This document shows positions 3,151 to 29,600 of a DNA stretch of 64,000 nucleotides, piece by piece. The first letter of the stretch is position 1. Each line of letters starts with the position of its first letter. The notes under the pieces were generated by a model that saw only the letters and a program-made list of their open reading frames with translations, had not been told where the DNA came from and did not search any database. Source of the stretch: a virus (Duplodnaviria > Caudoviricetes); the IMG/VR virus record IMGVR_UViG_2528311002_000006, positions 1-64,000 of that record; one strand, given 5' to 3'. The translations under genes and the position numbers were made by a program.

Positions 3151-4911
3151 ATGCCAATGACTGATTACCTCGCAGCACTCCCTATTCCTTCCCCCTTGGT
3201 ACCAGATCGCCTGCGCGAACTGCTACAACCAGTAGGCAATGATGCTGCGCTTAGAGTCGAGGTCAGTTGCATGACAGAAGACGACCTTTACGGGCCAAGA
3301 CGTGAGGTTGTGCACATGCTCATGGCCATAGTCCCAGATGATGGCAAAACTGCAACCCCTGTCCTCCACAGTGAACAAGGTCTTGTGTCATCTTCGACAC
3401 TGGAATTACGCGAAAAAGGTAGTGAGCGAAACTTTATACCAAGTGTCAATGGATATGACTATATTGTGGCGTCCTGGGGAAGCGGATCTTTCTATACCTA
3501 TCATTTAGCTGAAAAGGTATGGATGGCACTTGGACTCACCCCACGCTGCTTCGGAAACGAGCAGCAAAGATTGGTCTACGACGATCTGAAATTACCGGAG
3601 TTCAATGTTGTTGAAGGTGAAATTTCAGCCCAATACTATATAGAAGCCTCGCGCCAAATACGATGGCGCATGTCCAACGAGTATTTGCGTAGATACTTGT
3701 GGCTACGAGGTGGGCGCGGTGTTCGTCAGTTCTATTACAGCGCTATTCTTCAAGACACCCAGGAATTGCGCAATTGGATAAATGGACGCAAGACCATCGA
3801 ACTTGGAAGCCAAGGAAGCTGGTTCCATGGTGATATCCGCGAATCAGCTGAGGGTTTTCTCTTGCAATTGTGGGCGACTGTGGACGCAGTATCTTGTGAA
3901 TTGTGCCCGGAGCAGACAGCGGAAGGACTGCACTGGCCAGGTGTCGATCCTGCAGTCACCCGTCAATATGCTCGCTATATCGGTAATGATGCAATCATCT
4001 ATTTAGATGACAAATTTCTTGAAAGGTATGAGCAGAACAGCTTCTATAAAACCAGTCCACTTAAGATGCATGGTTTCTGGAATTGCAGTCCTTCATACCT
4101 AGGACAGTGGTCGTTTACTGGTTGCGAACGAGTTGGAAGAAACCTAATTCGGGTATCTTTGCGGGATTTATACAGTGGAGTGCCGGATCGAGAAATGCTG
4201 CACGCCCATAAACATGCACTAGCTGCAGATATAGTCGCTCAATATGATAAAAGCGAAGAGCACTTTGTCTCAAAGGTTGACAGGTTATTAGTTCAGCTGT
4301 TAAACCTAGGCGACAACCTCTCAAAACTCGGTAGCACTCTGGGCATAGATACTAACACCGAAGAATTGACTGGATTTAGCCGCGAAGAAATAAATAACAA
4401 CGGCTGGATGCATTACCCACAACTCAAAAAACTCGCTCAAGTTTCACCTATCACGATGACACAGCAGCAGTTCCTGGCTCGTTGCAAATCGATACATGAG
4501 ATTTGGCAAAAACTGCCTAATGGAATCCTTAAAAGAATTTTACAAGCTGCAGGAATTCCAAAGACTCAAATTGCTAACCGAGCAAGCTTAAAGCTGCTCC
4601 AGTCCCTGCTAAACATCCTTCAACCCCTGGACGCCAACCAAGAAGCCGTGGACGCATTCAGAAGCGATCAAGAGCCTGAACTCTGGGATCAGAGGAACCC
4701 TGGGATAGCGATGCTCTTTGTTGCGAACGACCTTCGAATCGCTGACGCCCATGATATGGCTGATTATCATCAAAAACTGGTCGATCAAGGATTCGATATT
4801 GCTAGCCTGAATCAAGGCTATGGCAGAGCGCTAGATTTAGTCATGGACGGCGTTATCAATTCATTTGAAGCAATCAACAACCCTCTTGCACGAATCCTCT
4901 CACGAACCTGA
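3151..4911 (+). CDS. 586-aa low-GC moron protein with C-terminal RxxxxH (HEPN-like) motif
   Basis: long ORF, visibly lower GC than flanks, NDLRIADAH in a helical C-terminus; convergent on the lysis genes. Confidence 0.75.
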   Translation: MPMTDYLAALPIPSPLVPDRLRELLQPVGNDAALRVEVSCMTEDDLYGPRREVVHMLMAIVPDDGKTATPVLHSEQGLVSSSTLELREKGSERNFIPSVNGYDYIVASWGSGSFYTYHLAEKVWMALGLTPRCFGNEQQRLVYDDLKLPEFNVVEGEISAQYYIEASRQIRWRMSNEYLRRYLWLRGGRGVRQFYYSAILQDTQELRNWINGRKTIELGSQGSWFHGDIRESAEGFLLQLWATVDAVSCELCPEQTAEGLHWPGVDPAVTRQYARYIGNDAIIYLDDKFLERYEQNSFYKTSPLKMHGFWNCSPSYLGQWSFTGCERVGRNLIRVSLRDLYSGVPDREMLHAHKHALAADIVAQYDKSEEHFVSKVDRLLVQLLNLGDNLSKLGSTLGIDTNTEELTGFSREEINNNGWMHYPQLKKLAQVSPITMTQQQFLARCKSIHEIWQKLPNGILKRILQAAGIPKTQIANRASLKLLQSLLNILQPLDANQEAVDAFRSDQEPELWDQRNPGIAMLFVANDLRIADAHDMADYHQKLVDQGFDIASLNQGYGRALDLVMDGVINSFEAINNPLARILSRT

Positions 4912-4922
4912 GGGACTCGTTA

Positions 4923-5438
4923 CTAGCGAGGTGGCCGCATAGGCACGGGCAGTTCCTTGTTTTGCGGGATCACTGGCCAGGCTGCGCGGCAAGTTGCTGC
5001 ATCAGCTGCGTGGCCATCAGCTTTGAACCCCAACTCCGTATATCGCTCGACACACTGTCCAAATAGGGAGTTGAGGGTAGAGGCATACTCAATGAGGGCG
5101 CCGGGGGAAGCTTCGGCAAGTCGCTGCTCGGCATCGGACAGCTTGTGCTGCATGCCGTCACGCTCACGGCGAGCGCGATCAGCAGCAGCCTGCAAACCGG
5201 CCTGCTTCTGGATGGCATCATTCAGGGCTCCTTGGTATTTGTCGTTGACCGTGCGCTCGACGGCCAGCACGCGCCGGCCGGCGGCCGTGCGCTCTTCTGT
5301 GATCTGCTGGCGGTATTGGCTGGCCTGCAAGCGCTCGTCGGCCAACTCAGCCCCCAGGCGTGCTGCCTGGAAGTACCAGACCAGCAAGCCTGCGAGCACC
5401 GCGATGACGATATGGGTGTAGAGGCTCAGGCGGCCCAT
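4923..5438 (-). CDS. Rz-like inner-membrane spanin
   Basis: N-terminal TM then coiled coil; GGAGG before ATG 5438; contains an embedded lipoprotein gene. Confidence 0.85.
   Translation of the reverse strand: MGRLSLYTHIVIAVLAGLLVWYFQAARLGAELADERLQASQYRQQITEERTAAGRRVLAVERTVNDKYQGALNDAIQKQAGLQAAADRARRERDGMQHKLSDAEQRLAEASPGALIEYASTLNSLFGQCVERYTELGFKADGHAADAATCRAAWPVIPQNKELPVPMRPPR
4970..5221 (-). CDS. Rz1-like outer-membrane spanin lipoprotein embedded in Rz
   Basis: signal peptide with lipobox VTAC, Pro-rich mature part, alternate frame inside Rz. Confidence 0.8.
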   Translation of the reverse strand: MMPSRSRPVCRLLLIALAVSVTACSTSCPMPSSDLPKLPPAPSLSMPLPSTPYLDSVSSDIRSWGSKLMATQLMQQLAAQPGQ

Positions 5439-5490
5439 GCCAACCTCCAACATAGCCATGGGTCGCACATCATGTAGAACATGATGGGGC

Positions 5491-6519
5491 TCACGGCAGC
5501 ACCTGCAGCGCCTTGGCTAGGGCGTAGCCCTCATGCTCCCAGAGCTTGTCGCGGGCCTTGCCTTCTGCCTGCTCACGCGCATATTTCATGCCCAGGGCAG
5601 CATTGAAATTCTCCTGGCTCACGCAGGCGCTGTGGCCAGTTGCCAGATAGAAGCGACCCAAGAAGGCATGCGCAAGGGTGCTGGTGGTACCAGCTGGCTG
5701 CTCGTAGAGCCACGTTACTTTCGCCATCAGCCCCTGAATCTGCTCGGCAGTCACGCGCGGTGCAGTCAGGCCAGCAGCAACAATCTCCGCTTCGGCCCGT
5801 TGGTCGCCTCGAACACCAGCAGAGATGTGGTGTACCTCGGTGTCCCCCACAGTGACTCGCCCCGCGGCAGCGCATACGGCCAATCCGGCGCTGTAGCTGT
5901 CCACGGCCGCGCCGAATGCTTGCACCGGGCCCGGGTGGGCGCTCTGGGCGATATGCACCGGGTTTCTCCACTTGCCAGCAACATGCTCAGCAATGCTTTC
6001 CAAACCCCTCTTGGCCGCTTCAAGTCGATCATGGTTATTCGGGTTCGGGCAACTACTGCAGGCCGAATTAGGCCCGCAGGTACAAACCTGCTTTGAGGCA
6101 GACGCAGTCAATCCGAGAATGGCATCCACTGCGTTACGAATATAGATACCCATATCCACGCCGCCAGACATTCGATCCACTAAATCCCGGCCTAGTGCGT
6201 GAATCAAAGCGAGTTCCAATTCAAACCGCAAGCTACGCTCAGGCATCGTTACAGAGCAATTGGCTGAGCCTGAACCAGTGCCAGTTGTAGGCTCCAACCG
6301 TTCAAGGTGTTTATGCAGCTCTTTAAATCCGAATGCGACCGCAAAGGCCAGAATAATGGAGCACGACGCAATGAGGCCGGCCAAAGCCTGATAATCGCGT
6401 TGCCCCGGACTCTGCAAATATCCAACTGTAAAATACAAGAATGCGAAGGTAATCAACAAAGCCGAAAAAATCTTGTCGCTAAGAGAGAACGATTGCAGGA
6501 ATTTCATGGAAATCTCCAT
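5491..6519 (-). CDS. two-TM protein with Cys cluster and C-terminal Gp49/Sf6-gp66-family domain
   Basis: GLTAPRVT...TGHSACVSQENFNAALG..AR...RDKLWEHEGY; CTCGPNSACSSC in the middle. Confidence 0.75.
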   Translation of the reverse strand: MEISMKFLQSFSLSDKIFSALLITFAFLYFTVGYLQSPGQRDYQALAGLIASCSIILAFAVAFGFKELHKHLERLEPTTGTGSGSANCSVTMPERSLRFELELALIHALGRDLVDRMSGGVDMGIYIRNAVDAILGLTASASKQVCTCGPNSACSSCPNPNNHDRLEAAKRGLESIAEHVAGKWRNPVHIAQSAHPGPVQAFGAAVDSYSAGLAVCAAAGRVTVGDTEVHHISAGVRGDQRAEAEIVAAGLTAPRVTAEQIQGLMAKVTWLYEQPAGTTSTLAHAFLGRFYLATGHSACVSQENFNAALGMKYAREQAEGKARDKLWEHEGYALAKALQVLP

Positions 6520-6551
6520 AGTCCGGCTGCCGGCCGGCGCGGGCCGATGGC

Positions 6552-7010
6552 TTAGGGGTTTTGGATACGCTCACCCAAAATGGTGGAAAGCTCTTGCATC
6601 ACATCCAGTTGACGGCGTTGGAGTGCTTGCTGTGCAGGGGAATCGTTGAGAAACAAAGAGGTACCGATAATCTCGTGCATCCGCGTAATGCGAATATCCA
6701 ACTCCTGTTTGTCATCCAGCAAAATCTGCTGGCATGGCGATACCGTGCAACCGACCACGAGCCAGTCATCAGCGAGGCAATCATTCACACTGGGAACCCA
6801 GGTGCTGACCGTCTCGTTCGCGTTCTTAATCGCAAAGTAGGCGTTGTAGGGCACCATGGCACCTTCACCAAAGTGCTCCTTGGCAGCGCCGGTCTGCACC
6901 GGGTAGCTGGCCGCAGGCACCAGATAGACGAACAAACCTTTGCCATTCCAGCCAGTGCGCTGCAAGCGCTTGCCGAGATCCAGCTCCTTGAGGGCATCAC
7001 CGAATTTCAT
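6552..7010 (-). CDS. DUF2829 (Tad2-like) domain fused to a helical hairpin domain (crAss001_48-like)
   Basis: MKFGDAL..L..GKRLQRTGWNGKGLF...WVPSVNDCLADDW, then ELDIRI...RRQLDVMQELSTILGERI. Confidence 0.8.
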   Translation of the reverse strand: MKFGDALKELDLGKRLQRTGWNGKGLFVYLVPAASYPVQTGAAKEHFGEGAMVPYNAYFAIKNANETVSTWVPSVNDCLADDWLVVGCTVSPCQQILLDDKQELDIRITRMHEIIGTSLFLNDSPAQQALQRRQLDVMQELSTILGERIQNP

Positions 7011-7324
7011 TGTCCAGCCCCCTCACCTACCGTCTCATAGGTCGCGTCAAAGATCTCGCGCTTGCAGGGGTAGATCTCGCCGGCCACGCCAGTAATAAGC
7101 ATGTCCCCCGGGCCCATCTTCATGGCGCCTTCAAGGGTTGGAATAAGGTAGCAGGTGTCGCTTTCGTGTGTGATCGGATGGCCGCCATAGCTGAACGACC
7201 AGGGCATCCCGTTCACGATATTCGACTCACGGCCTTCTTTCTTGCACTGGGCAAGACCATGCTGAACCAGCTCGGTGAATGTGATGGCCGTAATAACGAC
7301 TGGCTTTTTTCTATATTTCGTCAT
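7007..7324 (-). CDS. conserved phage protein (YRKKPVVI...TLEG...GD...GEIYPCK..IF..TYE family)
   Basis: recognisable motif set; 4-nt overlaps with both neighbours. Confidence 0.85.
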   Translation of the reverse strand: MTKYRKKPVVITAITFTELVQHGLAQCKKEGRESNIVNGMPWSFSYGGHPITHESDTCYLIPTLEGAMKMGPGDMLITGVAGEIYPCKREIFDATYETVGEGAGQ

Positions 7325-7548
7325 TGCTGGGCCTTCATCGCTGCTTCGGTGAAATCAGGCAGATCCGCTGCTGCGCGCAAGAAGCAGTCTCTGGCTTCCA
7401 GCAGCTTGCGCATGCCTGCGCTCTTTTCGGGACCGTCTGGCAGCAAAGACTCCATGGACTGGGCCACGCTGGCCGTCTGCCGGCCGACAGGCTGAAACTT
7501 CATCGGCAGGTTGGAGTAGCCGAAATATTTGAGCGTGGTCGATGGCAC
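7321..7548 (-). CDS. small helical-hairpin phage protein (LPDGPEKSAGMRKLLEARDCFLRA)
   Basis: GTG start at 7548 with GGAGG; predicted two-helix fold reminiscent of Acb2/Tad1 hairpins. Confidence 0.75.
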   Translation of the reverse strand: MPSTTLKYFGYSNLPMKFQPVGRQTASVAQSMESLLPDGPEKSAGMRKLLEARDCFLRAAADLPDFTEAAMKAQQ

Positions 7549-7549
7549 G

Positions 7550-7858
7550 TTAAGCCTCCGACTCAGTAGCCTTCGGCACCTCGTCGGCAGTGCCACTGAC
7601 CGCCGACTGCAGTGCGGCCAGCACTTCGGGAGCCGAATCCGCCGTCAAACCAGCCAGTTGCCCCTGGGCTTCGGCCGCGACCGGCGAGAGCGCTTGGGGC
7701 TCTGCGACCGGCAAGACCATGGCCTGCATCAAGTCGCGGCCATTCACCAGCGGAGCGCCCAGAGGCTGCAGTCCTGCGATCAGGGCTTCGCGCACCTTGG
7801 CTTGCAGGTCGTTGGCGTCACCGCCGCGCACGATGCGATAGTCAGCAATCTTTTTCAT
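7550..7858 (-). CDS. DUF1737-like protein
   Basis: YRIV...LQAKVREAL..GLQPLGAP...MQAMV plus a low-complexity tail. Confidence 0.7.
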   Translation of the reverse strand: MKKIADYRIVRGGDANDLQAKVREALIAGLQPLGAPLVNGRDLMQAMVLPVAEPQALSPVAAEAQGQLAGLTADSAPEVLAALQSAVSGTADEVPKATESEA

Positions 7859-7859
7859 G

Positions 7860-8513
7860 TCATTTCCCTAGGTTGGTAGGTTGGAGGGGCATGCGCCAAA
7901 GGCGGCAAATCTCATCGTTGGCATCGCCGCGCAGCTTCAAGCCGGGCAACACCGTCTGCACACCATTGACCGTGCCCTTGCTCCAGCGCGGGTTCTCTCG
8001 GCAAGAGCCTTCGAGATCCCCGGCATTCGCCTTGCGCAGTAGCGTGCTGGTGCTCAGGTTGGTTTCACCCTTGTTGTGGATGAAGTCGATGAATGTGGCC
8101 CGGGCAAATTCGTCATAAATGGCCCAGTGGACGAAGAGCCGCTTGCCAGCACGCTCGGCAGCCAGGTACCGGCCCTTCTCCAGCCGGTAGCACTCGGCCG
8201 GGCTGTACCACTTGCCGGCAACCACACCAGCCCCGGTAATTCCGTTACAAACGGTCAAGGGCTGCCCCTTGCCCAGCTTGTCGATGTAGGGAGTGCCGAT
8301 GTGGCGATTGCTGGATTCGTAGTACGACCCCATCACCATGGCAATGCGCACGGCGTCAGACACATCAGGATCAGCAGCTACTGCCTGGATGTACTGGTTC
8401 TTCTGAGATTCAGCCGTGGCGGCTTGATCCACGTAATAGGTGCCGCCACCCATGCCGATGAGAATCATCAGGGCGCCAAGGCTGTTTCGCAGCATCGTGG
8501 GAACCTTGCTCAT
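7860..8513 (-). CDS. SAR-type endolysin (GH24 lysozyme)
   Basis: Gly-rich N-terminal TM; YES...PYID...TVCNGITG; STLLRKANAGD; LPGLKLR. Confidence 0.9.
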   Translation of the reverse strand: MSKVPTMLRNSLGALMILIGMGGGTYYVDQAATAESQKNQYIQAVAADPDVSDAVRIAMVMGSYYESSNRHIGTPYIDKLGKGQPLTVCNGITGAGVVAGKWYSPAECYRLEKGRYLAAERAGKRLFVHWAIYDEFARATFIDFIHNKGETNLSTSTLLRKANAGDLEGSCRENPRWSKGTVNGVQTVLPGLKLRGDANDEICRLWRMPLQPTNLGK

Positions 8514-8806
8514 ACCGCACCGCCCACAGCAGCCTTGGCTTTTTCGCGCAGCTCCTGCCGAGCTTGCTCATGCTTGAAATCGCGGCGCCACTTCCAGACC
8601 AGATACGCTGCCTGCAGCGCCACAAAGGCAATGGTTGCCACCACCGCCCAATCACTCAGAGGCAGCCCGCCCAGGCGCGCGGCGCCTGCAGACGCCGCGC
8701 CAGGCGTAGCTTGTATGGCTGCGACGGCAATGTCCTGCTTTTGCTCGGCACTCAAGTGCTGATGGATGCCCAGCAGCGCCAGGACTGATGCGAGTGCTCT
8801 TTTCAT
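8510..8806 (-). CDS. putative holin
   Basis: small TM protein with basic C-terminus overlapping the endolysin start. Confidence 0.75.
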   Translation of the reverse strand: MKRALASVLALLGIHQHLSAEQKQDIAVAAIQATPGAASAGAARLGGLPLSDWAVVATIAFVALQAAYLVWKWRRDFKHEQARQELREKAKAAVGGAV

Positions 8807-8812
8807 GCATGC

Positions 8813-8854
8813 ATCGTCGTGGCGCGCGCCTGAAGTCCTAAACCCTATGCAGGG
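8813..8854 (-). promoter_or_regulatory. late promoter copy 1 (holin, leaderless)
   Basis: minus strand CCCTGCATAGGG-TTTAGG-N18-GACGAT-N6-ATG. Confidence 0.8.
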
Positions 8855-8998
8855 TCAGTGGGGTGAGATTTGATGCGAAAGCAACTGTGTTTCCTGCACA
8901 TTCATGGACGTTGGTGCAGGAGCCTACGGCACGATGGAAGTTAAAGCCCCAACGTCGCGGCAGCGATGAATAGCTCATCCACCAGAGTACCGGTGGAC

Positions 8999-20678: not shown

Positions 20679-23600
20679 TCAGAAGGCAAAACCACCTGCA
20701 TCCATGGCATCACGCCTATTGCGTGGCAGGTACACACCGTCTTGCGCTTGATCGATGCGGCGCTGGCGTGCGCGCACGCTCTGCCACATTTGCGGGCTTG
20801 TGATGCGGCGACCAGGGTTCTTCTCGTTGAAGGCCTTGATTTCCTCGCGGGCCTCAGCCTGGGCTTCGCTATCCTTCTTCATGACAGCGTGCGAGAACTG
20901 ACCCAGCAACTCAGCACGGCGCACGTTCAAACGACGATCAGCGTTCATGACAGCGCCGCGCCCCTCAAAGGCGAGTCGAACCTCCGAGGGCGAGAAACCC
21001 ACCAGTTGGCCAGCGATTCCCAAAGCGCTTACATCGTCCTTGATCGTGATCCCGGTCGAGTCCTTGGCACCTTCTTGCAGGAAGCGCGCGGACTTGATGG
21101 CATTGCGGGGCACAACCGGCATCATGCTTTCAAGACCGCGCATGAAATCGCCTTCTGCCAGCAGTTGGGCTCCGCGCGCACCGTTGATACCAATGCCGAC
21201 CACCGGGCCCAGCAATCCTGTGGCCATTTCCTGCGCCCACATCTTGCCCTCCAGCCCTTCACGAATGTCAGGGAAGATCAGGTTATCCAGGCCAACACGC
21301 CCCGAGATGTCCCAAGGCGTAAGGCGCGAGAAGCCCTTGGCAATTACTTCTGAGGCCTGCTGGCCAAAGGCGTCAGCGAGCATGTTACGCAGAGCAATCT
21401 CTGCGTCCCATGGGTCATCGTCATCACCGCCGAGGGCGGATGCCAGCGCCAGCAGTGGCCCGACCAGAGGCAGGCCCAGAACGCCGGCCGCTGCCGCATG
21501 CATGGTAGTCACGCCTGCAAAGGTCTTGAGCGCCTGCTTATCGCCCTTTGCAGCCAGGTAGGCATTGCGGCCCAGCGTGTAGATCATGTTCTGGGCGAAC
21601 TGCTTGAACAGGAGCACCACACGGGCCACGTTGCCTTGCATCAAGCGTGGGCGGTTTGCAGATCCATAGTCAAAGTGACCGTCATAGGTCGCCTTCACGG
21701 CGTCCTCATAGGCCTTGTAATGGTCGCTACCAGCCTCGCGTGCCAAGCGATACGACGCTATGAAGGTCGCTTGGCGGTTAAAACGCTCGGCGTGGTGGAA
21801 CAGGAAAGACGCGGCACGCATGACCGGGCGCAGCTTCCACATCACGCCCGCGTCCTCGCCCTGGGCAATGCCGGCCAGATCATGCGCCATGGTCACATCG
21901 ATCACACCGGAACGTACAGCCTCGTCATACGCGGCCAGCTCGTCCTTGTCCTTGAGCTGGGTGCGAATGTCGTTTTTGCCTTTGACCGACTCATTCGATG
22001 CACGCAGCAGCGCTGCGGCCGACTTCTTGAATCCCCACTTGGCACCCATCACCGGATACGCCACAAGTGCCGTCTGAGACAGGTTGACCATGGCGGCGGC
22101 TGGAGATAGCCCCAGGTGGAAGATAAAGCCAAAGCTGGTCAGCGCCGAAGACAGCGAATTGGTCTTTGGGTTCATCAGCTGGTCATGGCGCTTCTGCATT
22201 TCATCGACCACCCGCTGGGCCTTGGGCTGATCAAAGTCGTCCTTGAACGCCCCCATGGTGTCAACATGCTTTTGCATGTTGTCCAACTCATCAGCCATCA
22301 GATCGCTGTAACGGAGCTTCGCCAGGTAGCGAGCACCGTGGAAGGAGTTTTGCGCAAAAGCGCGGCGGGCATCTTGGCTAAAGCCCGGCGTTCCCTTACG
22401 GTGGATGCCATGCTTGGCCCAGGACAGATCGGGCAGCGACGAGAGATAGAGCTGTCCCAGAGTATCTTCCAGCTCAGCGCGCTTATCGGCGGGAATCTCA
22501 TGCTTATCCAGTGCAGCGAAGACTTCGGACATGAAGCCGCGCCCCACCATGTCATGGTTGGCGACAAAATCCTTGCTCAGCGTCACGCGCCCCACATTGA
22601 AGCCCTTGTCTGAGGGAAAGGCCTTGCGCATTTCATCACGCATACGCTCGGCCTCGGTCATGGTTTCGGCACGAGACACGCTGATCACCTTGCCGTCCTG
22701 ATCCTTGGTGGCCACCACATACTGGCCAAAACGGGCCAACGGGAAATAGACCCCCTTCACATAGCCGAAGAAATCGGCATCCATCTTCTCAAGCAGCTCC
22801 TGGCGCTTCTGGCTGCTGAGCTCGGCGCGCATGATGCGCTCACGGATGGCGTTGCGAACCTGCTTGTGATGTTCGCGGTAGTGGTCGCGCGCCTCACGGT
22901 ACACCGCCTTGGCCTCGGGCGACAGCGCATCGAAACGCCGCTTGAGAGCAGTGCTCTGCGCCTTATTGTCGCCTTCAACATACTCCTTGGCGCTGTCTGC
23001 ATCGATCTCTGCCAGGGTAGCATCGTGCATCAGCTCTGACAGAGGCAATTCATCCTTGAGCTTGGCCCAACGCGTGGCAAGGTTGTCGGCCTCAGCGCCC
23101 ACATCGTTCTTGTCTGCCTCCATCTGCGCCACAAGACGGTCATATTCGGCCATGGGGATGGTGTCGCCATAAATATCCACCAGCTGGCGGCGGCCCAGGA
23201 ACTGCAGTCCCAGCTTGAGCCAGTCGGTCAGCTTGTGGCTGCCGGCCTTCTTCACATCCGTGGCAGTGATTGCCTTGAGGCCCTGACCGATGTTCTTGGC
23301 CGCCTCGGCCGCATCGCTCACGCCGAAGTGGGCTACATCGGATTCGGCGGCAGACTCCTTCAACGCCGACTGCCGCAATGCCTTGTCCTCGCGCATGACC
23401 TGCACACCCAGCTCCAATACCCGAGACAGAGCATCATCAGACTTTGCTGGCAGGCCCAGTGTGGATTTGAGAACCCTCACGAAGGCTGCCCACGCATTTT
23501 TAAGCGTGCTCCCGGCAGGAGCAGCCATTCCACGAAGCACTCGCTGGAATTCTGGGTTAGTGAACGCCTCCGCAACGAACTCGCCCACATTCTTCATGCC

Positions 23601-26600
23601 GTAGGCGCCGGCCGCGCCACCCTGCTTTTTCACATGCTCATAGAGCTTGCGCATCTGCAAAGAGGCCACGCCCTTGCGGTCGAGGCTCTTGAGCGTGGCG
23701 GCATGAGTCATCTCGTGCAGGAAAATCTGCTCGGCCTGGCGGGCTGCGCCTTCGCTCATGCTCAACTCATCGAGCTTGCGGCTGTACTTGGCCAGGAACG
23801 TGAAGCCGCCATCGGCCCCCATCTCGCCACCCATGCTGATGCGCGGCGCGGCGCCCGTCTTCACCAGAATTCTGGCCAGTTTGCGATTGAAGGGATTCTT
23901 GGAGCTGGAAGCGATAAGCCCCAGAATGTCCGCCGCGGACTTGCCATCGCGCACCATGTCCATTACGGCTCGATCGGTACGGGAGCCAACTAGCTGCTGG
24001 GTGCGGTCAGCACCCTTGTAGAAAATACCCTTGGCTTGCTCGCCTACCAGTTGACCCGGCTGTCGTAGAGCTTGTTCCAGTAGTCCGGGTCTTTGGCTGC
24101 TCTCTCCGTGTGCCAGGGTATTGAGGAGAATGCCTCTCTTAATCGAACGGCGCCCAACGCCTGCCGCTCGCATTCTTGGATGCTCAGACCAGAGGCGAAG
24201 CATTCCATCAGGTAGGGGCTTGCCTGCACCTGTGCGGAAGGTACCTGTTGCAAAGTCGTAGCGGGCACGGCGAAATTCTGGAACATGGGCTGCAATAGAA
24301 GCCAGCGACACATCGATCATGCGCTGAATGTTGCCGATGGTATCACCAGGGCGCCACTTCAGCGCGGGAATGCCCAGCTTCTCGTCGCCCTGCACCTGGC
24401 GCGCATGCGGCTCCATATGACCAGTGCTGCCGTGCTTGATAGCGGACGAGATCATGGCCTCCAAGCGGCGGCGCATCGCAATGTCGGACAGCCCAGCGGG
24501 ATCGCCGATAAACACCATGTCGTTGCCGGCCGCGTAATCCATCAGTGCGGCGTAGATGGTGCTGCCACCATCGCCCTCGCCCAGCCGGCTCACATCAAGC
24601 CAGAGCTCGTTGCCCTTCTCGAAAACGTAAAAATCGCGGCCATTGCCAGTACGAAACAACAGTTTGGTATCGGCGCCGCTCTCGCTGCGCTCATCCTCTG
24701 CCGTCACATCGCCTACGAATTGGATAGACGCATCAACCTGACGCAAGGCAGCTGCTGCCGACCCTGCATTGACTCGCGGGTTCACGAACAGGTCATCGAC
24801 AGCAGCCAGTTCAGCCATGAACTCAGCGGGGAAGGTATCCAGCGGGCTTGCTGCCTTGTGGCCGAAATGCGTCTCGGAAGTATCTTGCTCATTTTGCAGA
24901 TCTACCACGGGACGGTTCTTCGTCAGTCGCTCGAGCACTGGCACGCCGGCTGCACCGGTCGGCACAAACAGGCGCTCGGCCCAACTGATACGTTCGCTCA
25001 CCAGGCCAATACCGACGAGATCAGCGCGCACCGCAGGGCTGATGTAGCCGCCGCTGGGGTTCTTCAGCTCAATGCGCAGGTCGTCAGAAACGCGCGCTCG
25101 CTCCAGCGACCAACCGTTCGCCAGCTCAGCCTTGTCCCCCTTGAGGATCTGGGCCATCACCTGGGCCGGGCTCATCTTGGATGCAGCCGAGGACACATTC
25201 AGGCGCTTACGCACATCGGGCAGGCTCTTCTTGTCGATCACGCGGCCCAGCAGGCGGCTGCCGTCCACAGTCATAGTCCGCGCCACCTGAATGGAGCCAT
25301 CCGTCTTCAAGCGATCCCAGATCGGCAGCATGGCGCCAACGATCATGTGCTTGCGCTCGGTGTAGGTCTTGGGGCGGGCCTCGTTTTCTGCAGCCCAGAG
25401 CTTCATGGCCTCGGCCTTGGTCGAACCACGGAATGCCTTGGCAATCTCTGGGGCGGTCTTCGACTGGACACTGCCCGTGCCGTAGAAGCGGAAGCGATCG
25501 ACAACGGCACCTTCCTTGGTGGTTGACTTGCCTACCAGAGTCTTTGCATAGACCTTGCCCGACTTCACGTTCACCACGTACTCAGCCTTTTGCAGAGAAT
25601 CCGGGAATGGGTAGATGGTGGTCGGCTGGGTCAGTTCCAGCTCAACCAGGCGGGTTTCGGCGCCCGAACGCGGGTCGGTGTATGCCAGGTCATCCGCCAC
25701 CACTCGTGACTCCAGCGCGCGAATCGTCTGCAGGCCAGCATCAAACTCGCCACGCTCCACCGCCATCTCCACTTTCTCTTCCATGCGCAGCATGAAGGCA
25801 TCGAACACTTTTTCCTGCATATCCAGCTTGAGGGACAGCATGCGGTTCAGGAAAGTGCGTGTATCGGGCATCCGGTCTTCCGCGATGCGATTGGTTTCCT
25901 CGTCAATGATGCTTTCCAGCCCAGTCTGGCGCAGAAACTCCGCGAAGCTGATGCCGTCCAGCTGCTGGTGCTGACCATCCTTGAAAAATTGCTGCACAGC
26001 CTGAGTCGCATAGATGGACTCCAGATTGTCCTTTTCGCTGAACATGCCCTGATTGGCAGTATCACGCTGGCCCTTGGTCAAAGCGCCAAGCTGATCCAGC
26101 CGGCGAGCGATGGCTGAAAGGAAGCGCTTCTGCGAAGGCACGTTGGTGGATGCCAGAAAGTAGTGAGGCGCGCTGGCCTGGTTGGTACGGTGAGTGCGGC
26201 CGAACCCCTGCACCGCTTTATCCGCACGCCAGCCGGGCTGGATCAGATAGTGGCTGCGCTTGCGCTTGTTCTTCTGCGTGTTGTCCGCGTGGAAGGAATA
26301 GCCGGTACCGCCCGCATCCGAGAACACCAGAATCGGCTTTTGGTCAGCCATGAAAGCATTGGCATCGGCGCGGGCCGATGCGGGGCCGCGAGACTCGAGT
26401 TGGGCTCGGAGCTCGCCATCCTTGTCCAGCTTGCGCACCACGCGCTGTGTGCGGCCGGTGACCTCTGCCACCTTATCCACGCCGAAATGGTTCAGCACAA
26501 TCTCCAGTGGGCCATCGGGGACGCGGATGTCCTTGAGATCCTTCAGGAGAGCTTCGCGCATGGCCACGGCCTCCCGGTTGATGACCGGGTTGCCTTGCGA

Positions 26601-29600
26601 ATCCTTGGCAGGCACGCGGATTTTCTTGCCCGAATCGTCTTCCTGCTCCTCGAACTGGGTAACAGGGAACGACTTTTCAACCATCTGCATCAGCACATCG
26701 CGTGGCGTGAGATCCAGCTCTTCCAAGTCGGCGGACTCGTCTTCCTCCCGACGCTTGGCGATTGAGCGGTTCTGCTGGGCCTCGTTGGTGTTGACCAGCT
26801 GCAGCACCAGGGCCTTGCCATCGGCAACGTCGCGCTCCATCTGCTCGAGCACCGAAGGCATTTGCATGCTGGTGATGACCTGGCTGAAGAAGCGCTGCTG
26901 TGCTCCCCAGTATGCGGACATGGCTGCGCTCTTGGCCGAGGAAGAGCCCTTGCCGTTTTCGCCCACGGCACCCGTGGTCTTCAAAGCAGCGTCAATGTTC
27001 TGCAGCGTGACCTGCCACGCCTCAGCCAAACGGTTGTAAATGTCCTGCTGCAGCGGTGACAGCTGATGCTCAACGCGCGAATACGTCACGCCCTCAAAGG
27101 AGAGGCTACGTGCCATGTACGCCCCCATCTGTTTCAGATCGCGCGCCACCAGCTCCATAGCTGCCAGACCGCCAGCGGTCATTTCAGCAATGAAGTTCTG
27201 CACACTGGCAAAAGGTGTTGCCGGGCCCCACAGGCCCAGACGAGTGGCGAAAGACAGGTTGGAAACCTGGGTCGCACCAGTTGCGGACACGTAGACCACT
27301 CGGGCATTGGGCAGACGCTTTTGCAGCTCGACCACAGCCAAGGCCTGGGCGGAGGGCTGGGACTGGCCTCGCGTGCCCTTCTGGGCTACAGCATTGCCGG
27401 CGTTATGCGCCTCATCGAAAGCAATCACGCCGTCGAAGTCCTTACCCAGCCAATTTACCAGCTGATCCAGGCGGGACTGCCCTTCCTTCTTGCTGCCCTT
27501 GGCCGGCTGCGCGGTGCGGCCCGACAGCCAATCACTCTGGCCACCGATGGACTCCACGCTGGTATAGCGGATGAATTTCAGCTCACCGCCCACCTTCACC
27601 CAGACCTTGCCGCCGTCATCCTTGGGGTCGATGTGATCCAGAGGGAATGTGCCGCGGCCATTCGTAGTGACCACATCCAAGCCCTTGGGGAACTGCTTGG
27701 CGAACTGTGCCTTGGTGATGGGAGCGGCAACATTCTCCTGAGACTTCGCGCCGCTGCGCAAAGTGGCATAGCTCAGGAATGCGATACCCTGATCAGCGTT
27801 GATCTGCTCTTCTGCCTTGGTCTTGCTGACACTGAAGATCTGCTTGGGGTCGCCACCGATGCCCGAGAAATCGCGCTGTGCATCTGGCATCAGTCCGGGC
27901 TTTTCCGAAATCCAGACCGCCTTTTCACGGCCCTGGCGCATATTGTCCAGAATGATGCCCGAGATCTCGCGCCCCTTGCCCACTCCGGTGCCGTCACCGA
28001 TGAAGAAGCCGCGACGATAGGCGACATCCTTCCCGTCAACGGTCACGGGCTCCAGCAGCTCCTGATGAGCCTGGCCGGCATAAACGACTGCCTCAATCTG
28101 GGCAATCGACAGCAGGCCTTTTTCAATGGTTTCCTTGGGCAGGTTCGGCGTGTATGTCGGTACGGGCGGCAACACGGCGGCCATGGCCGAGGATTGCACC
28201 AGCGGGCCGGGGTGCGGCTTGGCACCGGGTACTTGCAGACGCTGGGGCTGGTAGGACTCAAAGATCGAGTCGCTCAGGCCAGCTGCGGGATCGCCGGTCT
28301 GCTCAGTCGCCTGAATGCTTACAGCTGATTGGGCGGCATCAGATCCGCTACCTCCTGCAGCAGCAGCATCGCGGCCTCCTCCAGCGTCGTCGTTTCCAGC
28401 AGTTCGACCTGTGCCAGATTCTGAGCCATTGTCTCTGGTTCCTCCAGATCCGCCAGCGCCGCTGCGCCCTCCACTTCCTGCGCCCAGCCCCTGTCCCCGG
28501 CCAGATTTTGCGCGGCCCACATCAGAACGCTGGTCACGGCCAGATTGTTCGGGCTGTGCGGAACCCCGGCCTGCTTGAGAAGACTCAGCAAGTGCATACT
28601 CTGCGGCGTCGAGTTCAAGTCCGTCACGATCGTTTGACGGGAAAACAGATTCTGGTCGGTCATTGCGGATCTCGGCAAGGCTGCCAATGAGGTCACTGTA
28701 AGTCTTGGCAGGAGTTGTGACAATAGGTCGATGGGACGGCTTCACCTTGTCGATCACCAAAATGGCGTTGTCGAAGGTCGTGCCGTACTTGGCGTAGCCG
28801 GAACCATCCATGGGGATCACGGCGCGCACGTCATACTTGGCGCGAATGCCCTTCCACCAGTCGGCGAAGGCCGGGCGGTCGAGATTCATGCCCTCACCCA
28901 CGATGGCCACCAAACGGCCACCATCTGCCAGGCGCTTCAAGCCCTGCTCAACATGCTGGGCGCCGACATGCGTGTCACGCTTGCCTTGAATGCGACCAGC
29001 GGTCGCGCTGAAGGGTGGGTTCATCACCACCACGGAAGGGATCTCCGTCACGGGCAGGATGTTATCGATCTGCTCAGCGTTCTCCGTGAAAACCTTGGCT
29101 GCCGGGAACACCTCACGCAACACGGCTGCACGGCGGCTGCTGAGCTCATTCAGGATCAGCTTGGCACCCGCATTCTTGGCAAAGGCCGCCAGACCTCCGA
29201 TGCCAGCGCTGGGCTCCAGCATCGTGTCGCTGCTGTCCATGTTTGCCGCCCAGTTGGCTGCATAGGCCAGGGCTGGAACGGTACTGAACTGCTGGAACTC
29301 ATCTTGTTCCGCAGTGCGCTTCGTCTGAGTCGGCAGCATCTGCGTGATGCGGTGCAGACGTTCCACGATGATGTGAGCTGCATCCTGGGTGGCGTTCGGG
29401 TTGAACTCTCCGGGCCGGGACAGAATGAATTGGTTGACCCCCGCCTCCATGGCGTCGTAGGCATCCTTGGGCGTGTACTTGCCCTCAGCCTGCGTGCCTC
29501 CGAAGGCGGAATCAGCTTGTTCAAACAATGCGCGCCAGTCGAAACTGCCGTCAGCCGCGCCGCGCTCCAGCTGGGACTTCACCCAGTCGGCCAGTACGCC

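What the first reader, a model, noticed from the sequence alone, without database searches (positions are those of the whole stretch)
5491..7858. Five-gene putative immune-signal sponge cassette inside the lysis operon
Seen: endolysin and Rz/Rz1 are separated by five tightly packed genes under the holin late promoter. They are a DUF1737-like protein, a helical hairpin, a KKPVVI-family protein, a DUF2829 fusion and a Gp49-domain fusion. Established: DUF2829 is the Tad2 sponge that binds Thoeris gcADPR signals. From memory and needing verification: Gp49/gp66 relates to the cGAMP sponge Acb4, and the crAss001_48-like hairpin to Sequestin. Inference: a late-expressed multi-sponge array against nucleotide-signal immunity, whose uncharacterised members are candidate new anti-defence families.
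Basis: partly seen in the sequence, partly recalled or inferred. Interest (0 to 1): 0.85.

Follow-up and report, generated by a model that had tools for sequence, protein, structure and literature searches.

The report
Immune-signal sponge island inside prophage lysis cassette
A prophage, probably of a Comamonas-like bacterium, carries between its cell-bursting genes a small cluster of genes that most likely soak up the host's antiviral alarm molecules; most parts belong to known sponge families, but one widespread domain and one membrane-anchored form are untested.

Summary
On the minus strand the order is holin, endolysin, five tightly packed genes (7858-5491), then Rz/Rz1. Only the "late promoter" is unshown.

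Two genes carry three known sponge domains, all above Pfam cut-offs:
- g4 is a Tad2+Sequestin fusion, an architecture already published.
- g5 ends in an Acb4 domain. A profile of it finds only the solved Acb4 structure. It sits behind a rare N-terminal region with two membrane segments and a cysteine cluster (3 relatives found).

The stand-alone hairpin (g2) is not Sequestin. It is a remote Acb2/Tad1-hairpin relative.

The KKPVVI protein (g3) is a PGDYG-like phage domain with no solved relative. Its function is unknown, but 21 of its 120 best homologues are fused to Sequestin, 1 to Tad2, and one IMG/VR locus to Acb4.

g1 is a marginal DUF1737. A 2026 preprint shows that domain to be a capsid-decoration domain, so g1 is probably not a sponge.

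Related Comamonadaceae prophages keep a sponge module at the lysis cassette, after Rz or before the spanins, with shuffled fusions.

Verdict: a multi-sponge anti-signalling island, a new variant of a known kind. g3 and the g5 N-terminus are the testable novelties. No function was assayed.

The parts
8510..8806 (-). Holin, 98 aa.
   Evidence: phrog_920 holin, E 1.5e-13. One clear hydrophobic segment at residues 52-72. Its stop overlaps the endolysin start.
7860..8513 (-). Endolysin, 217 aa. Phage lysozyme with a hydrophobic N-terminus.
   Evidence: PF00959 53.2 bits. phrog_7 endolysin, E 8e-18.
7550..7858 (-). g1, 102 aa. N-terminal DUF1737-like domain (residues 7-38) and an Ala/Pro/Glu-rich tail. 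Probably a capsid-decoration protein.
   Evidence: PF08410 23.7 bits, cut-off 24. Of seven relatives scanned (P0245-P0251), four score above the PF08410 cut-off: P0245, P0246, P0247 and P0248. A fifth, P0249, pairs a sub-threshold DUF1737 match (22.9 bits) with a head-fibre domain. Only 8 representative clusters at E<=1e-3. DUF1737 was shown to be a hexon-centre capsid-binding domain in phi24B.
7321..7548 (-). g2, 75 aa helical hairpin. Remote Acb2/Tad1-hairpin relative and candidate sponge.
   Evidence: - GTG start behind a GGAGG.
- 928 homologues, none with a Pfam family except one fused to PF21825.
- Model pLDDT 89.
- Aligns to 9ptq_A (Acb2 homolog 43): Z 5.3, rmsd 2.6, 54 residues, 26% identity.
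- 26 of 30 ESM Atlas feature hits share the PF24729 set.
- 16 of 61 homologues hit PF24729 at E<=1, best 9.2e-4.
7007..7324 (-). g3, 105 aa KKPVVI / PGDYG-like domain. Function unknown; candidate signal-binding or signal-cleaving module.
   Evidence: - 1567 homologues. Of the best 120, 21 carry PF21825 and 1 carries PF11195.
- Model pLDDT 92.
- No PDB relative: Foldseek finds none at E<=0.001 and the best VIA Z is 2.6.
- BFVD matches go to uncharacterised or 'PGDYG' phage proteins.
6552..7010 (-). g4, 152 aa Tad2-Sequestin fusion. Tad2 domain about 7010-6753; Sequestin domain about 6734-6561.
   Evidence: PF11195 81.5 bits at residues 1-86. PF21825 35.9 bits at residues 93-150. PDB Tad2 8v3e_E and 9eib_A, E 5e-22. 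The fusion architecture is published.
5491..6507 (-). g5, 338 aa. Two membrane-like segments (residues 13-31 and 39-64; nt about 6471-6316). A conserved middle region with a CxC..CxxC cluster. A C-terminal Acb4 domain (residues 255-333; nt about 5745-5509).
   Evidence: - PF13876 45 bits.
- A profile of Acb4 domains hits only PDB 9e4w_A 'anti-CBASS 4', E 3e-6.
- Hydropathy segments and a GC drop to 0.47-0.53 in the N-terminal part.
- The N-terminal 235 residues have only 3 homologues, all with the same architecture.
4923..5438 (-). Rz-like i-spanin, 171 aa from the ATG behind a GGAGG.
   Evidence: phrog_5777 E 1.5e-41 and phrog_312 Rz-like spanin E 3.6e-5. N-terminal hydrophobic segment.
4970..5221 (-). 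Rz1-like o-spanin, 83 aa, embedded in another frame of Rz.
   Evidence: Read from the sequence: hydrophobic signal ending in a lipobox-like ...TAC, then a Pro-rich mature part. No family hit.

Best explanation
The five genes are an accessory counter-defence island carried inside the lysis cassette at the end of a temperate phage's late gene block. They lie next to the prophage-host junction.

Core genes:
- g4 is a Tad2-Sequestin fusion.
- g5 is an Acb4 domain held at the inner membrane by two N-terminal membrane segments.
- g2 is a divergent Acb2-like hairpin.

Proposed mechanism: these proteins form homo-oligomers. They bind and hold back the nucleotide alarm signals made by Thoeris (gcADPR, His-ADPR) and CBASS (cyclic di- and trinucleotides). 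The host effectors are then never switched on.

Other genes:
- g3 (KKPVVI/PGDYG-like) is a partner module of unknown activity. It is often fused to these sponges, so it most likely binds or destroys a nucleotide-like ligand.
- g1 is most likely a capsid-decoration protein that happens to sit here.

Expression with the late genes would put the sponges in the cell while capsid and tail proteins accumulate. Such proteins are known triggers of these systems.

Shown: gene order, domain membership, fusions, and conservation of the module at lysis cassettes. Inferred: ligand binding, oligomer state, timing, membrane topology, and any role of g3.
For: 1. Domain membership above curated cut-offs: PF11195 81.5 bits, PF21825 35.9 bits, PF13876 45 bits. 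Solved relatives: Tad2 8v3e/9eib at E 5e-22. Acb4 9e4w is the only profile hit, E 3e-6.
2. The papers equate these Pfam families with experimentally shown sponges and report Tad2-PF21825 fusions (60 instances, one drawn from a Comamonas element) and PF21825-Acb4 fusions (91 instances).
3. g2: three weak, partly independent lines lead to the Acb2/Tad1 hairpin. g2 family members occur fused to Sequestin in P0018 (37.7 bits) and L002 (54.3 bits). In Novosphingobium profundi (L122) one sits between Tad2 and Sequestin genes with 4-nt overlaps.
4. g3: 21 of the 120 best homologues are fused to Sequestin and 1 to Tad2. There is a KKPVVI-Acb4 fusion in L002 and KKPVVI-Tad2 fusions in L018, L098 and L120.
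5. The module is kept at lysis cassettes in relatives:
- L083: holin, endolysin, g1, g4, a 131-aa unknown, g5, then a different spanin pair.
- L086 and Comamonas suwonensis (L117): holin, endolysin, Rz/Rz1, g4, g5.
- C. aquatilis (L116) and Lampropedia aestuarii (L118): Rz then g4.
- L002: holin, endolysin, Rz/Rz1, [hairpin+Sequestin], [KKPVVI+Acb4].
6. Another assembly carries the holin-to-g5 block at about 91% identity. Likeness stops at 5434 and 8858.
7. g3, g4 and the g5 N-terminus have lower GC (0.47-0.56) than holin and Rz (0.63), as expected for acquired genes.
Against: - Nothing was assayed. Every functional statement rests on homology.
- The g4 Sequestin domain, mapped by spacing only, has I/D/Q/R where SequestinA has R8/E12/Q47/R61, so binding may differ.
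- DUF2829 relatives in the PDB also include AcrIIA7 anti-CRISPRs, E 3e-11 to 6e-11. This is weaker than the Tad2 matches but gives an alternative role for the fold.
- g2 itself gets no Pfam hit at E<=10. Its structural Z of 5.3 is within the noise for helical hairpins (top Z 7.1, 84 chains at Z>=5). hhalign against T4 Vs.4 gives probability 0.1.
- For g3 the wider family argues against a fixed sponge context. Of 77 IMG/VR KKPVVI ORFs, only 1 carries Acb4, 1 Tad2 and 1 DUF551. Of 150 flanking ORFs, only 1 carries PF21825. Neighbours include nucleotide-metabolism, capsid and terminase genes.
- Known sponges are short soluble proteins. A 338-aa membrane-anchored Acb4 has no tested precedent that I found.
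- Characterised sponge genes were tested in print from an early-type promoter (tad1). Late expression here might be too late to help.
Confidence: 0.7

Rival explanations
1. All five genes are immune-signal sponges, including g1 and g3.
For: The genes are tightly packed in one operon-like block. g3 is fused to Sequestin, Tad2 or Acb4 in relatives. g1 stays next to the endolysin and g4 in L083.
Against: g1 belongs to DUF1737, which a cryo-EM preprint shows binding capsid hexons. One relative joins it to a head-fibre domain. g1 is absent from L086, L117 and L002, where the sponge genes persist. g3 has no known-sponge fold match and mostly non-sponge neighbours in the wider family.
Confidence: 0.12
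2. The cassette, or at least g5, is a lysis-timing device. A two-segment membrane protein between endolysin and spanins would act as an antiholin or holin modulator. Its Acb4-like domain would sense a nucleotide (host or immune) to advance or delay lysis.
For: Position inside the lysis cassette. Two membrane-like segments in g5. g5 is kept next to lysis genes in L083, L084, L086 and L117.
Against: In most relatives g4-g5 lie after Rz/Rz1, outside the holin-endolysin-spanin run. So they are not an integral lysis part. The only recognisable g5 domain is a sponge family. There is no similarity to holin or antiholin families.
Confidence: 0.1
3. The genes are ordinary prophage-end cargo with decayed or repurposed domains and have no role in counter-defence. 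For example, the DUF2829 domain could act as an AcrIIA7-like anti-CRISPR, or the domains could bind housekeeping nucleotides.
For: DUF2829 PDB relatives include AcrIIA7. The module sits at the prophage end, where morons collect. The arginine equivalent to Sequestin R8 is replaced (my mapping).
Against: All ORFs are intact and conserved at 65-97% identity in several relatives. The Tad2 matches are ten orders of magnitude better than the AcrIIA7 matches. Three different sponge families repeatedly co-occur and fuse. In print, R8A did not abolish Sequestin activity.
Confidence: 0.08

Closest known systems
Anti-signalling hotspot of N4-like (Migulavirinae) phages: Ab09 gp59 Acb4-Sequestin, Bes1, Bes2. 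Preprint 10.64898/2026.06.04.730250; passages and section 8 read.
   Same: A compact cluster of several adjacent genes against CBASS and Thoeris. It contains Acb4, Sequestin and Tad2 family members and fusions. Its content varies between related phages.
   Different: That hotspot lies between the DNA primase and the virion RNA polymerase of lytic N4-like phages. This island lies in or after the lysis cassette of temperate Comamonadaceae prophages. No Bes1 (RuvC-like) homologue was seen here. The membrane-anchored Acb4 and the KKPVVI domain are not described in the passages I read.
Tad2-PF21825 (Sequestin) fusion from a mobile element of Comamonas sp. 26. Tal et al., bioRxiv 10.1101/2025.07.12.664507, Fig. 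1B legend.
   Same: Same two-domain order and, apparently, the same host genus as the closest named relatives of g4. The published fusion was modelled as a homotetramer.
   Different: I could not compare the sequences, because the paper's proteins are in supplements that were closed. By my spacing-based mapping, g4 has I and D where SequestinA has R8 and E12.
Acb4 of Bacillus phage SPO1, PDB 9e4w (PF13876). Chang et al., bioRxiv 10.1101/2024.12.30.630793; passages read.
   Same: The g5 C-terminal domain matches PF13876 (45 bits). Its profile finds 9e4w as the only PDB hit.
   Different: SPO1 Acb4 is a soluble tetramer of about 97 residues per chain. g5 adds about 235 N-terminal residues with two membrane-like segments and a Cys cluster. 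Only 3 other proteins were found with this region.
Acb2 homolog 43 (PDB 9PTQ), a 3'cADPR-binding hexameric sponge. bioRxiv 10.1101/2025.08.24.671296; passages read.
   Same: About 70 residues, with a short N-terminal element and two long antiparallel helices. 54 residues align at 2.6 A with 26% identity. Atlas look-alikes carry PF24729.
   Different: g2 gets no Pfam hit itself. The family hits are sub-threshold. Oligomer state and ligand are unknown.
DUF1737 capsid-decoration domain of Stx phage phi24B gp84. bioRxiv 10.64898/2026.04.10.717836; passages read.
   Same: g1 has a marginal PF08410 match over the same N-terminal stretch. Most DUF1737 proteins are single-domain, like g1.
   Different: g1 scores 0.3 bits below the cut-off. 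Its tail is a low-complexity acidic stretch, not an esterase. No virion data exist.

Membership tests
Tad2 (PF11195, DUF2829) | Sequence match to the family model above the curated cut-off. | tested here: met
   81.5 bits against 25, residues 1-86 of g4. 82.6 bits in the genome scan.
Tad2 (PF11195, DUF2829) | Close relatives with solved Tad2 structures. | tested here: met
   8v3e_E and 9eib_A at E 5e-22. SPO1 Gp34.65 (8sme) at 5e-12.
Tad2 (PF11195, DUF2829) | Homotetramer that binds gcADPR and/or cyclic dinucleotides. | not testable with these tools
Sequestin (PF21825, crAss001_48) | Sequence match above the curated cut-off. | tested here: met
   35.9 bits against 24.8, residues 93-150 of g4.
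Sequestin (PF21825, crAss001_48) | Conserved ligand-contact residues (SequestinA R8, E12, Q47, R61; E12, Q47 and R61 are needed for activity). | tested here: inconclusive
   By spacing in the g4 domain I read I, D, Q, R at the matching places. There was no alignment to SequestinA, whose sequence I did not have.
Acb4 (PF13876, Phage_gp49_66) | Sequence match above the curated cut-off and to the solved Acb4. | tested here: met
   45 bits against 27. Profile A6 finds 9e4w_A at E 3e-6 as the only hit at E<=10.
Acb4 (PF13876, Phage_gp49_66) | Short stand-alone soluble protomer forming a tetramer. | tested here: not met
   g5 is 338 aa with two membrane-like segments before the domain. It is an Acb4-domain protein, not a canonical Acb4. 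Oligomer state was not testable.
Acb2/Tad1 hairpin (PF24729), for g2 | Sequence match above the curated cut-off (27 bits). | tested here: not met
   No hit for g2 at E<=10. 16 of 61 close homologues hit at E<=1, best 9.2e-4, all sub-threshold.
Acb2/Tad1 hairpin (PF24729), for g2 | Fold: two long antiparallel helices with a short N-terminal element. | tested here: inconclusive
   The model has this shape. 9ptq_A aligns at Z 5.3, rmsd 2.6, 54 residues, 26% identity, but many unrelated hairpins score alike. Atlas structure row 5 has TM 0.68, from a cluster that is 92% PF24729.
DUF1737 (PF08410), for g1 | Sequence match above the curated cut-off (24 bits). | tested here: inconclusive
   23.7 bits for g1 and 22.2 for the L083 copy. 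Four of seven relatives scanned score above the cut-off: P0245 (35.8), P0246 (24.8), P0247 (31.9) and P0248 (30.2).
PGDYG (PF14083), for g3 | Sequence match above the curated cut-off (27 bits). | tested here: not met
   21.3 bits. 10 of 77 IMG/VR relatives match at E<=0.001. BFVD structural matches include entries named 'PGDYG protein'. I therefore call it PGDYG-like, not a member.
Known sponge folds (Tad1, Tad2, Acb2, Acb4, Lockin, TadIV-1), for g3 | Structural likeness to a solved sponge. | tested here: inconclusive
   Foldseek against the PDB gives no hit at E<=0.001. VIA-align over 48,161 chains gives a best Z of 2.6. No sponge is listed, but absence from the list does not exclude one.
Anti-defence island / hotspot | Several adjacent counter-defence genes at one variable locus shared by related phages. 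| tested here: met
   Three to four sponge-family domains lie in 2.4 kb. Content and fusions differ between relatives at the same lysis-cassette position.
Two-component spanin (Rz/Rz1, embedded type) | An i-spanin with an N-terminal membrane segment, and an embedded lipoprotein ORF in another frame. | tested here: met
   PHROG spanin hits for Rz. Hydrophobic N-terminus. The embedded 83-aa ORF has a lipobox-like cysteine, read from the sequence.

The most novel reading that the evidence does not exclude
The parts without an assigned function are new modules that bind or destroy immune signals.

The main candidate is the KKPVVI/PGDYG-like domain (g3). It is widespread in phages, with at least 1567 homologues, and has no solved relative. 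It would be a further family of nucleotide-signal sponges or signal-cleaving enzymes. It was invisible to the published Pfam-based fusion screen because it has no Pfam model of its own.

g5 would be the first membrane-tethered sponge. It would place Acb4 at the inner membrane, where many CBASS and Thoeris effectors act. Lysis cassettes of temperate phages would then be a second general hotspot for anti-signalling genes.
Probability: 0.33. Interest if true: 0.75.

Novelty: new variant of a known kind. Interest (0 to 1): 0.55.

Why it matters
Sponge proteins are the main known way for phages to silence nucleotide-based immunity. By a review of October 2026, seven sponge families had been characterised.

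This locus packs three of them, plus a probable fourth, into 2.4 kb. They sit at a place not named in the papers I searched: one search listed 8 of the 11 papers holding at least three of the query terms, and none of those 8 uses the words "lysis cassette".

It yields three concrete test objects:
- A very conserved, widespread domain (KKPVVI/PGDYG-like) that is fused to Sequestin, Tad2 or Acb4. This is the same kind of clue that led to Sequestin.
- An Acb4 domain with a membrane anchor.
- A hairpin family (928 homologues, present in 338 sequenced phage records) at the edge of the Acb2/Tad1 family.

If late-operon sponges work, that would also bear on when in the infection cycle signalling immunity has to be blocked.

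Tried and rejected
**g3 (KKPVVI)**
- Foldseek against the PDB gave no hit at E<=0.001. VIA-align over 48,161 chains gave a best Z of 2.6. No known fold could be named.
- phmmer against PDB sequences gave only E 0.92 noise.
- I asked whether g3 equals the inactive N-terminal domain of RyR Tad (Pectobacterium phage CB1 gp68). BLASTP gave E 20 and hhalign gave probability 0.14. Rejected for lack of support.
- The idea that KKPVVI genes generally sit beside sponges was rejected for the wider family. Among 150 flanking ORFs, 1 carries PF21825 and 1 a lysozyme. The rest are heterogeneous.

**g2 (hairpin)**
- BLASTP against g4 gave no alignment, so g2 is not a Sequestin copy.
- Three sequence searches of the PDB found no sponge:
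  - Profile A5: only a weak Gp22 hit, E 0.008.
  - g2 alone: nothing at E<=10.
  - The Acinetobacter phage 133 homologue: nothing at E<=10.
- Foldseek against the PDB gave nothing at E<=0.001.
- hhalign of A5 against T4 Vs.4 gave probability 0.1.

**g5**
- phmmer against the PDB gave nothing at E<=1.
- The ESM Atlas gave no usable feature hit for the N-terminal 235 residues. All structure rows were below TM 0.4.
- The genome-contig scan found no relative.

**General searches**
- NCBIfam and PADLOC gave nothing for any of the five genes.
- blastn of the cassette against 50,697 phage records found only short pieces. No record covered 80%.

**Expression**
- Two runs filed as RNA hold a 13.5-kb and a 12.1-kb contig of a relative. 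They cover 5434-8858, with 267 differences and 12 gaps over 3094 nt.
- Contigs in an RNA library do not show transcription. I draw no conclusion on expression, timing or habitat.
- The promoter/terminator scan did not exceed its shuffled controls.

**Tools and files closed**
- The look-up of encoding contigs was not called because it is stated to be closed.
- Supplements were closed. Tables S1-S4 of Tal et al. and Table S3 of the Acb4 paper may already list g4, g5 or KKPVVI fusions. I could not check.

**What I saw of each paper**
- Tal et al.: outline, found passages, section 5 part 2, and sections 6 and 7.
- Acb4 preprint: passages.
- Review PMC13712596: passages.
- PMC13243611: outline and abstract.
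- Migulavirinae preprint: passages and section 8.
- Sponge-diversity preprint: passages.
- phi24B preprint: passages.
- D29 preprint: passages.
- All others: search listing only.

**Not-in-print claims**
- 'PGDYG' and 'PF14083': 0 papers.
- 'KKPVVI': 0 papers. 'PF24729': 1 paper.

Full report
**1. What is there**

The window belongs to an 89-kb provirus record. A host MocR-like regulator gene lies at 395-1789. The prophage genes then run on the minus strand. At the prophage end the order is tail-fibre-like ORFs, a gap of about 190 nt, then the lysis genes and the five genes in question.

| Gene | Coordinates | Size |
|---|---|---|
| holin | 8806-8510 | 98 aa |
| endolysin | 8513-7860 | 217 aa |
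| g1 | 7858-7550 | 102 aa |
| g2 | 7548-7321 | 75 aa |
| g3 | 7324-7007 | 105 aa |
| g4 | 7010-6552 | 152 aa |
| g5 | 6507-5491 | 338 aa |
| Rz | 5438-4923 | 171 aa |
| Rz1 (embedded in Rz) | 5221-4970 | 83 aa |

- Three junctions are ATGA overlaps. One is a 1-nt gap. The largest gap, between g4 and g5, is 32-44 nt.
- I moved two starts. g2 begins at a GTG behind a GGAGG, which fits the PHROG alignment. g5 begins at the second ATG, which fits its homologues of 338, 339 and 338 aa.
- The lysis genes are supported by PF00959, phrog_920 and spanin PHROGs. Rz1 has a lipobox-like cysteine.
- The consensus scan found no promoter or terminator signal above its shuffled controls. 'Under the holin late promoter' therefore remains an inference from spacing.

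**2. The two genes with known sponge domains**

g4:
- It has PF11195 (Tad2-like, 81.5 bits) at residues 1-86 and PF21825 (crAss001_48, 35.9 bits) at residues 93-150.
- Its Tad2 part matches solved Tad2 proteins at E 5e-22.
- The same search also lists AcrIIA7 relatives at E 3e-11 to 6e-11, which I keep as a minor rival.

g5:
- Its last 80-odd residues match PF13876 at 45 bits.
- A profile of seven such domains finds PDB 9e4w 'anti-CBASS 4 (Acb4)' as the only hit, E 3e-6.

Literature:
- PF21825 was named Sequestin and shown to sequester 3'cADPR.
- PF13876 is the Acb4 family.
- Tad2-PF21825 fusions occur in 60 instances, and one was drawn from a Comamonas element. PF21825-Acb4 fusions occur in 91 instances.

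Sequestin contact residues: reading the g4 Sequestin domain by spacing against the published residues R8, E12, Q47 and R61, I find I, D, Q and R. In print, R8A kept activity while the other three did not. This mapping is my inference, not an alignment.

**3. The unusual part of g5**

- Residues 13-31 and 39-64 are membrane-like.
- A strictly conserved stretch (about residues 89-135) and a CxC..CxxC cluster follow.
- This N-terminal region has only three homologues among 5.8 billion clusters in the searched length range. All have the same architecture.
- It gave no usable Atlas feature hit, and no Atlas structure match above TM 0.38.
- GC falls from about 0.63 in the Acb4 part to 0.47-0.53 in the N-terminal part, which suggests a recruited piece.
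- With two segments, both ends would be on the same side of the membrane. I infer a cytoplasmic Acb4 domain tethered to the membrane. This is not tested.

**4. g2, the stand-alone hairpin**

It is not a Sequestin copy: BLASTP against g4 gives no alignment.

Its family:
- 928 homologues of about 65 aa with a nearly invariant loop and second helix.
- It is found by tblastn in 338 phage records, including Vibrio, Mycobacterium, Erwinia and Acinetobacter phages. All 40 records that the call listed are annotated hypothetical or uninformative.

Three lines point to the Acb2/Tad1 hairpin family (PF24729):
- The AlphaFold2 model (pLDDT 89) aligns to Acb2 homolog 43 bound to 3'cADPR (9ptq_A). The alignment has Z 5.3, rmsd 2.6 A and 54 residues. 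Its 26% identity is the highest in the list.
- 26 of 30 Atlas feature hits share the PF24729 set, at scores 0.91-0.92.
- 16 of 61 family members hit PF24729 at E<=1, best 9.2e-4, and it is the top family by count.

Against this:
- g2 itself has no Pfam hit.
- A Z of 5.3 is ordinary for hairpins.
- hhalign against T4 Vs.4 finds nothing.

Context helps the sponge reading:
- g2-type domains are fused to Sequestin in P0018 and in L002.
- In Novosphingobium profundi one lies between Tad2 and Sequestin genes.

I rate g2 a probable remote Acb2-like sponge, at about 0.55.

**5. g3, the KKPVVI protein**

- At least 1567 homologues, very conserved at 67-97% identity among the best 120. Invariant residues include W42, Y46, H53, E54, Y59, E83 and Y85.
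- The model is confident (pLDDT 92), but no solved structure resembles it.
- In the viral model library it matches uncharacterised and 'PGDYG' phage proteins.
- No paper holds that name.

Fusions are the functional clue:
- 21 of the 120 best homologues end in a Sequestin domain and 1 in Tad2.
- L002 has KKPVVI-Acb4.
- L018, L098 and Stenotrophomonas africana (L120) have KKPVVI-Tad2.
- This is the same reasoning that led to Sequestin. The published screen used Pfam families, so it could not have seen a domain without a Pfam model.

The counter-evidence is as clear:
- In 77 distinct IMG/VR KKPVVI ORFs, only three carry another Pfam domain: Acb4, Tad2 and DUF551, once each.
- Of 150 flanking ORFs, only one is a Sequestin.
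- The rest include nucleotide metabolism, capsid and terminase genes.

So g3 is a general phage module that sponges often recruit. I give it about 0.35 to be a signal binder or cleaver itself.

**6. g1**

- It misses the DUF1737 cut-off by 0.3 bits.
- It has only 8 representative relatives. Seven were scanned, and four score above the cut-off. Another pairs a sub-threshold DUF1737 match with a head-fibre domain.
- A 2026 cryo-EM preprint shows that DUF1737 is a hexon-centre capsid-binding domain.
- g1 is absent from relatives that keep the sponge genes.
- I therefore take g1 out of the sponge set.

**7. Relatives**

A sponge module at the lysis cassette recurs:

| Locus | Order |
|---|---|
| L083 | holin, endolysin, g1, g4, a 131-aa unknown, g5, then a different, non-embedded spanin pair (read by eye) |
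| L086 and Comamonas suwonensis | holin, endolysin, Rz/Rz1, g4, g5 |
| C. aquatilis, Lampropedia aestuarii | Rz, then g4 |
| L002 | holin, endolysin, Rz/Rz1, [hairpin+Sequestin], [KKPVVI+Acb4] |

- Contigs from another assembly carry the holin-to-g5 block at about 91% identity. Likeness ends at 5434 and 8858.
- Among 30 IMG/VR loci found with g4, 12 hold a second family of this set: Acb4 in 8, Sequestin in 6 and KKPVVI in 3. Six have lysis genes beside it.
- The domains therefore form a shuffling set at a variable locus, which is what an anti-defence hotspot looks like.

**8. Comparison and verdict**

- The concept of a compact anti-signalling hotspot is in print for N4-like phages. The fusions are in print too.
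- What differs here is the site: the lysis cassette at the end of a temperate phage's late genes. One search listed 8 of 11 matching papers, and none of the 8 mentions a lysis cassette.
- The membrane-anchored Acb4 form and the KKPVVI fusion network also differ.
- Late co-expression with structural genes would fit the published finding that capsid and tail proteins trigger these systems. That link is my inference.
- I classify the finding as a new variant of a known kind, interest 0.55.
- I place 0.7 on the core statement that at least g4 and g5 act as immune-signal sponges.

Noticed in passing
window 20679-36680 (-): One uninterrupted ORF of 5333 aa. Its middle and C-terminal thirds carry LPD1, LPD37 and LPD39 'large polyvalent protein' domains and a Strawberry-notch-type helicase (AAA_34 377 bits, Helicase_C_4 231 bits). 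The first 1800 residues have no Pfam hit. I recall that polyvalent proteins are thought to be delivered with the DNA to counter host defence. If so, this prophage invests heavily in counter-defence.
   Followed up: partly
window 3151-4911 (+): A 586-aa ORF between the host MocR-like gene and the prophage end, convergent with Rz, in a lower-GC stretch (0.52-0.54). It has no hit above cut-off in Pfam, PHROGs, NCBIfam or PADLOC. It may be prophage-end cargo or a small island.
   Followed up: partly
L083 6485-6880 (+): In the related prophage a 131-aa ORF with no Pfam hit sits between the Tad2-Sequestin gene and the membrane-Acb4 gene. It is another untested candidate in the same island.
   Followed up: partly
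L083 7863-8533 (+): The related prophage has the same holin, endolysin and sponge genes. It is followed by a different, non-embedded spanin pair: 132 aa with an N-terminal membrane segment, then 91 aa with a lipobox-like ...AGC. The window's Rz model did not match it. The spanins were swapped while the block was kept.
   Followed up: no
L122 4605-5706 (+), Novosphingobium profundi: Three consecutive overlapping genes: a 219-aa protein ending in Tad2, a g2-type hairpin (79 aa) and a stand-alone Sequestin (69 aa). The N-terminal 130 residues of the Tad2 protein were not identified.
   Followed up: no
L113 1501-1695 (+), Acinetobacter phage 133: A g2-family hairpin (64 aa) lies among small early ORFs between rIIA and the gp60plus39 topoisomerase gene of a T4-like phage. 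The family is therefore not tied to lysis cassettes.
   Followed up: no
window 7860-8513 (-): The endolysin has a Gly-rich hydrophobic N-terminus, and the holin is small (98 aa). This looks like a signal-anchor-release endolysin with a pinholin. I read this from the sequence only; the hydropathy threshold was not reached.
   Followed up: no
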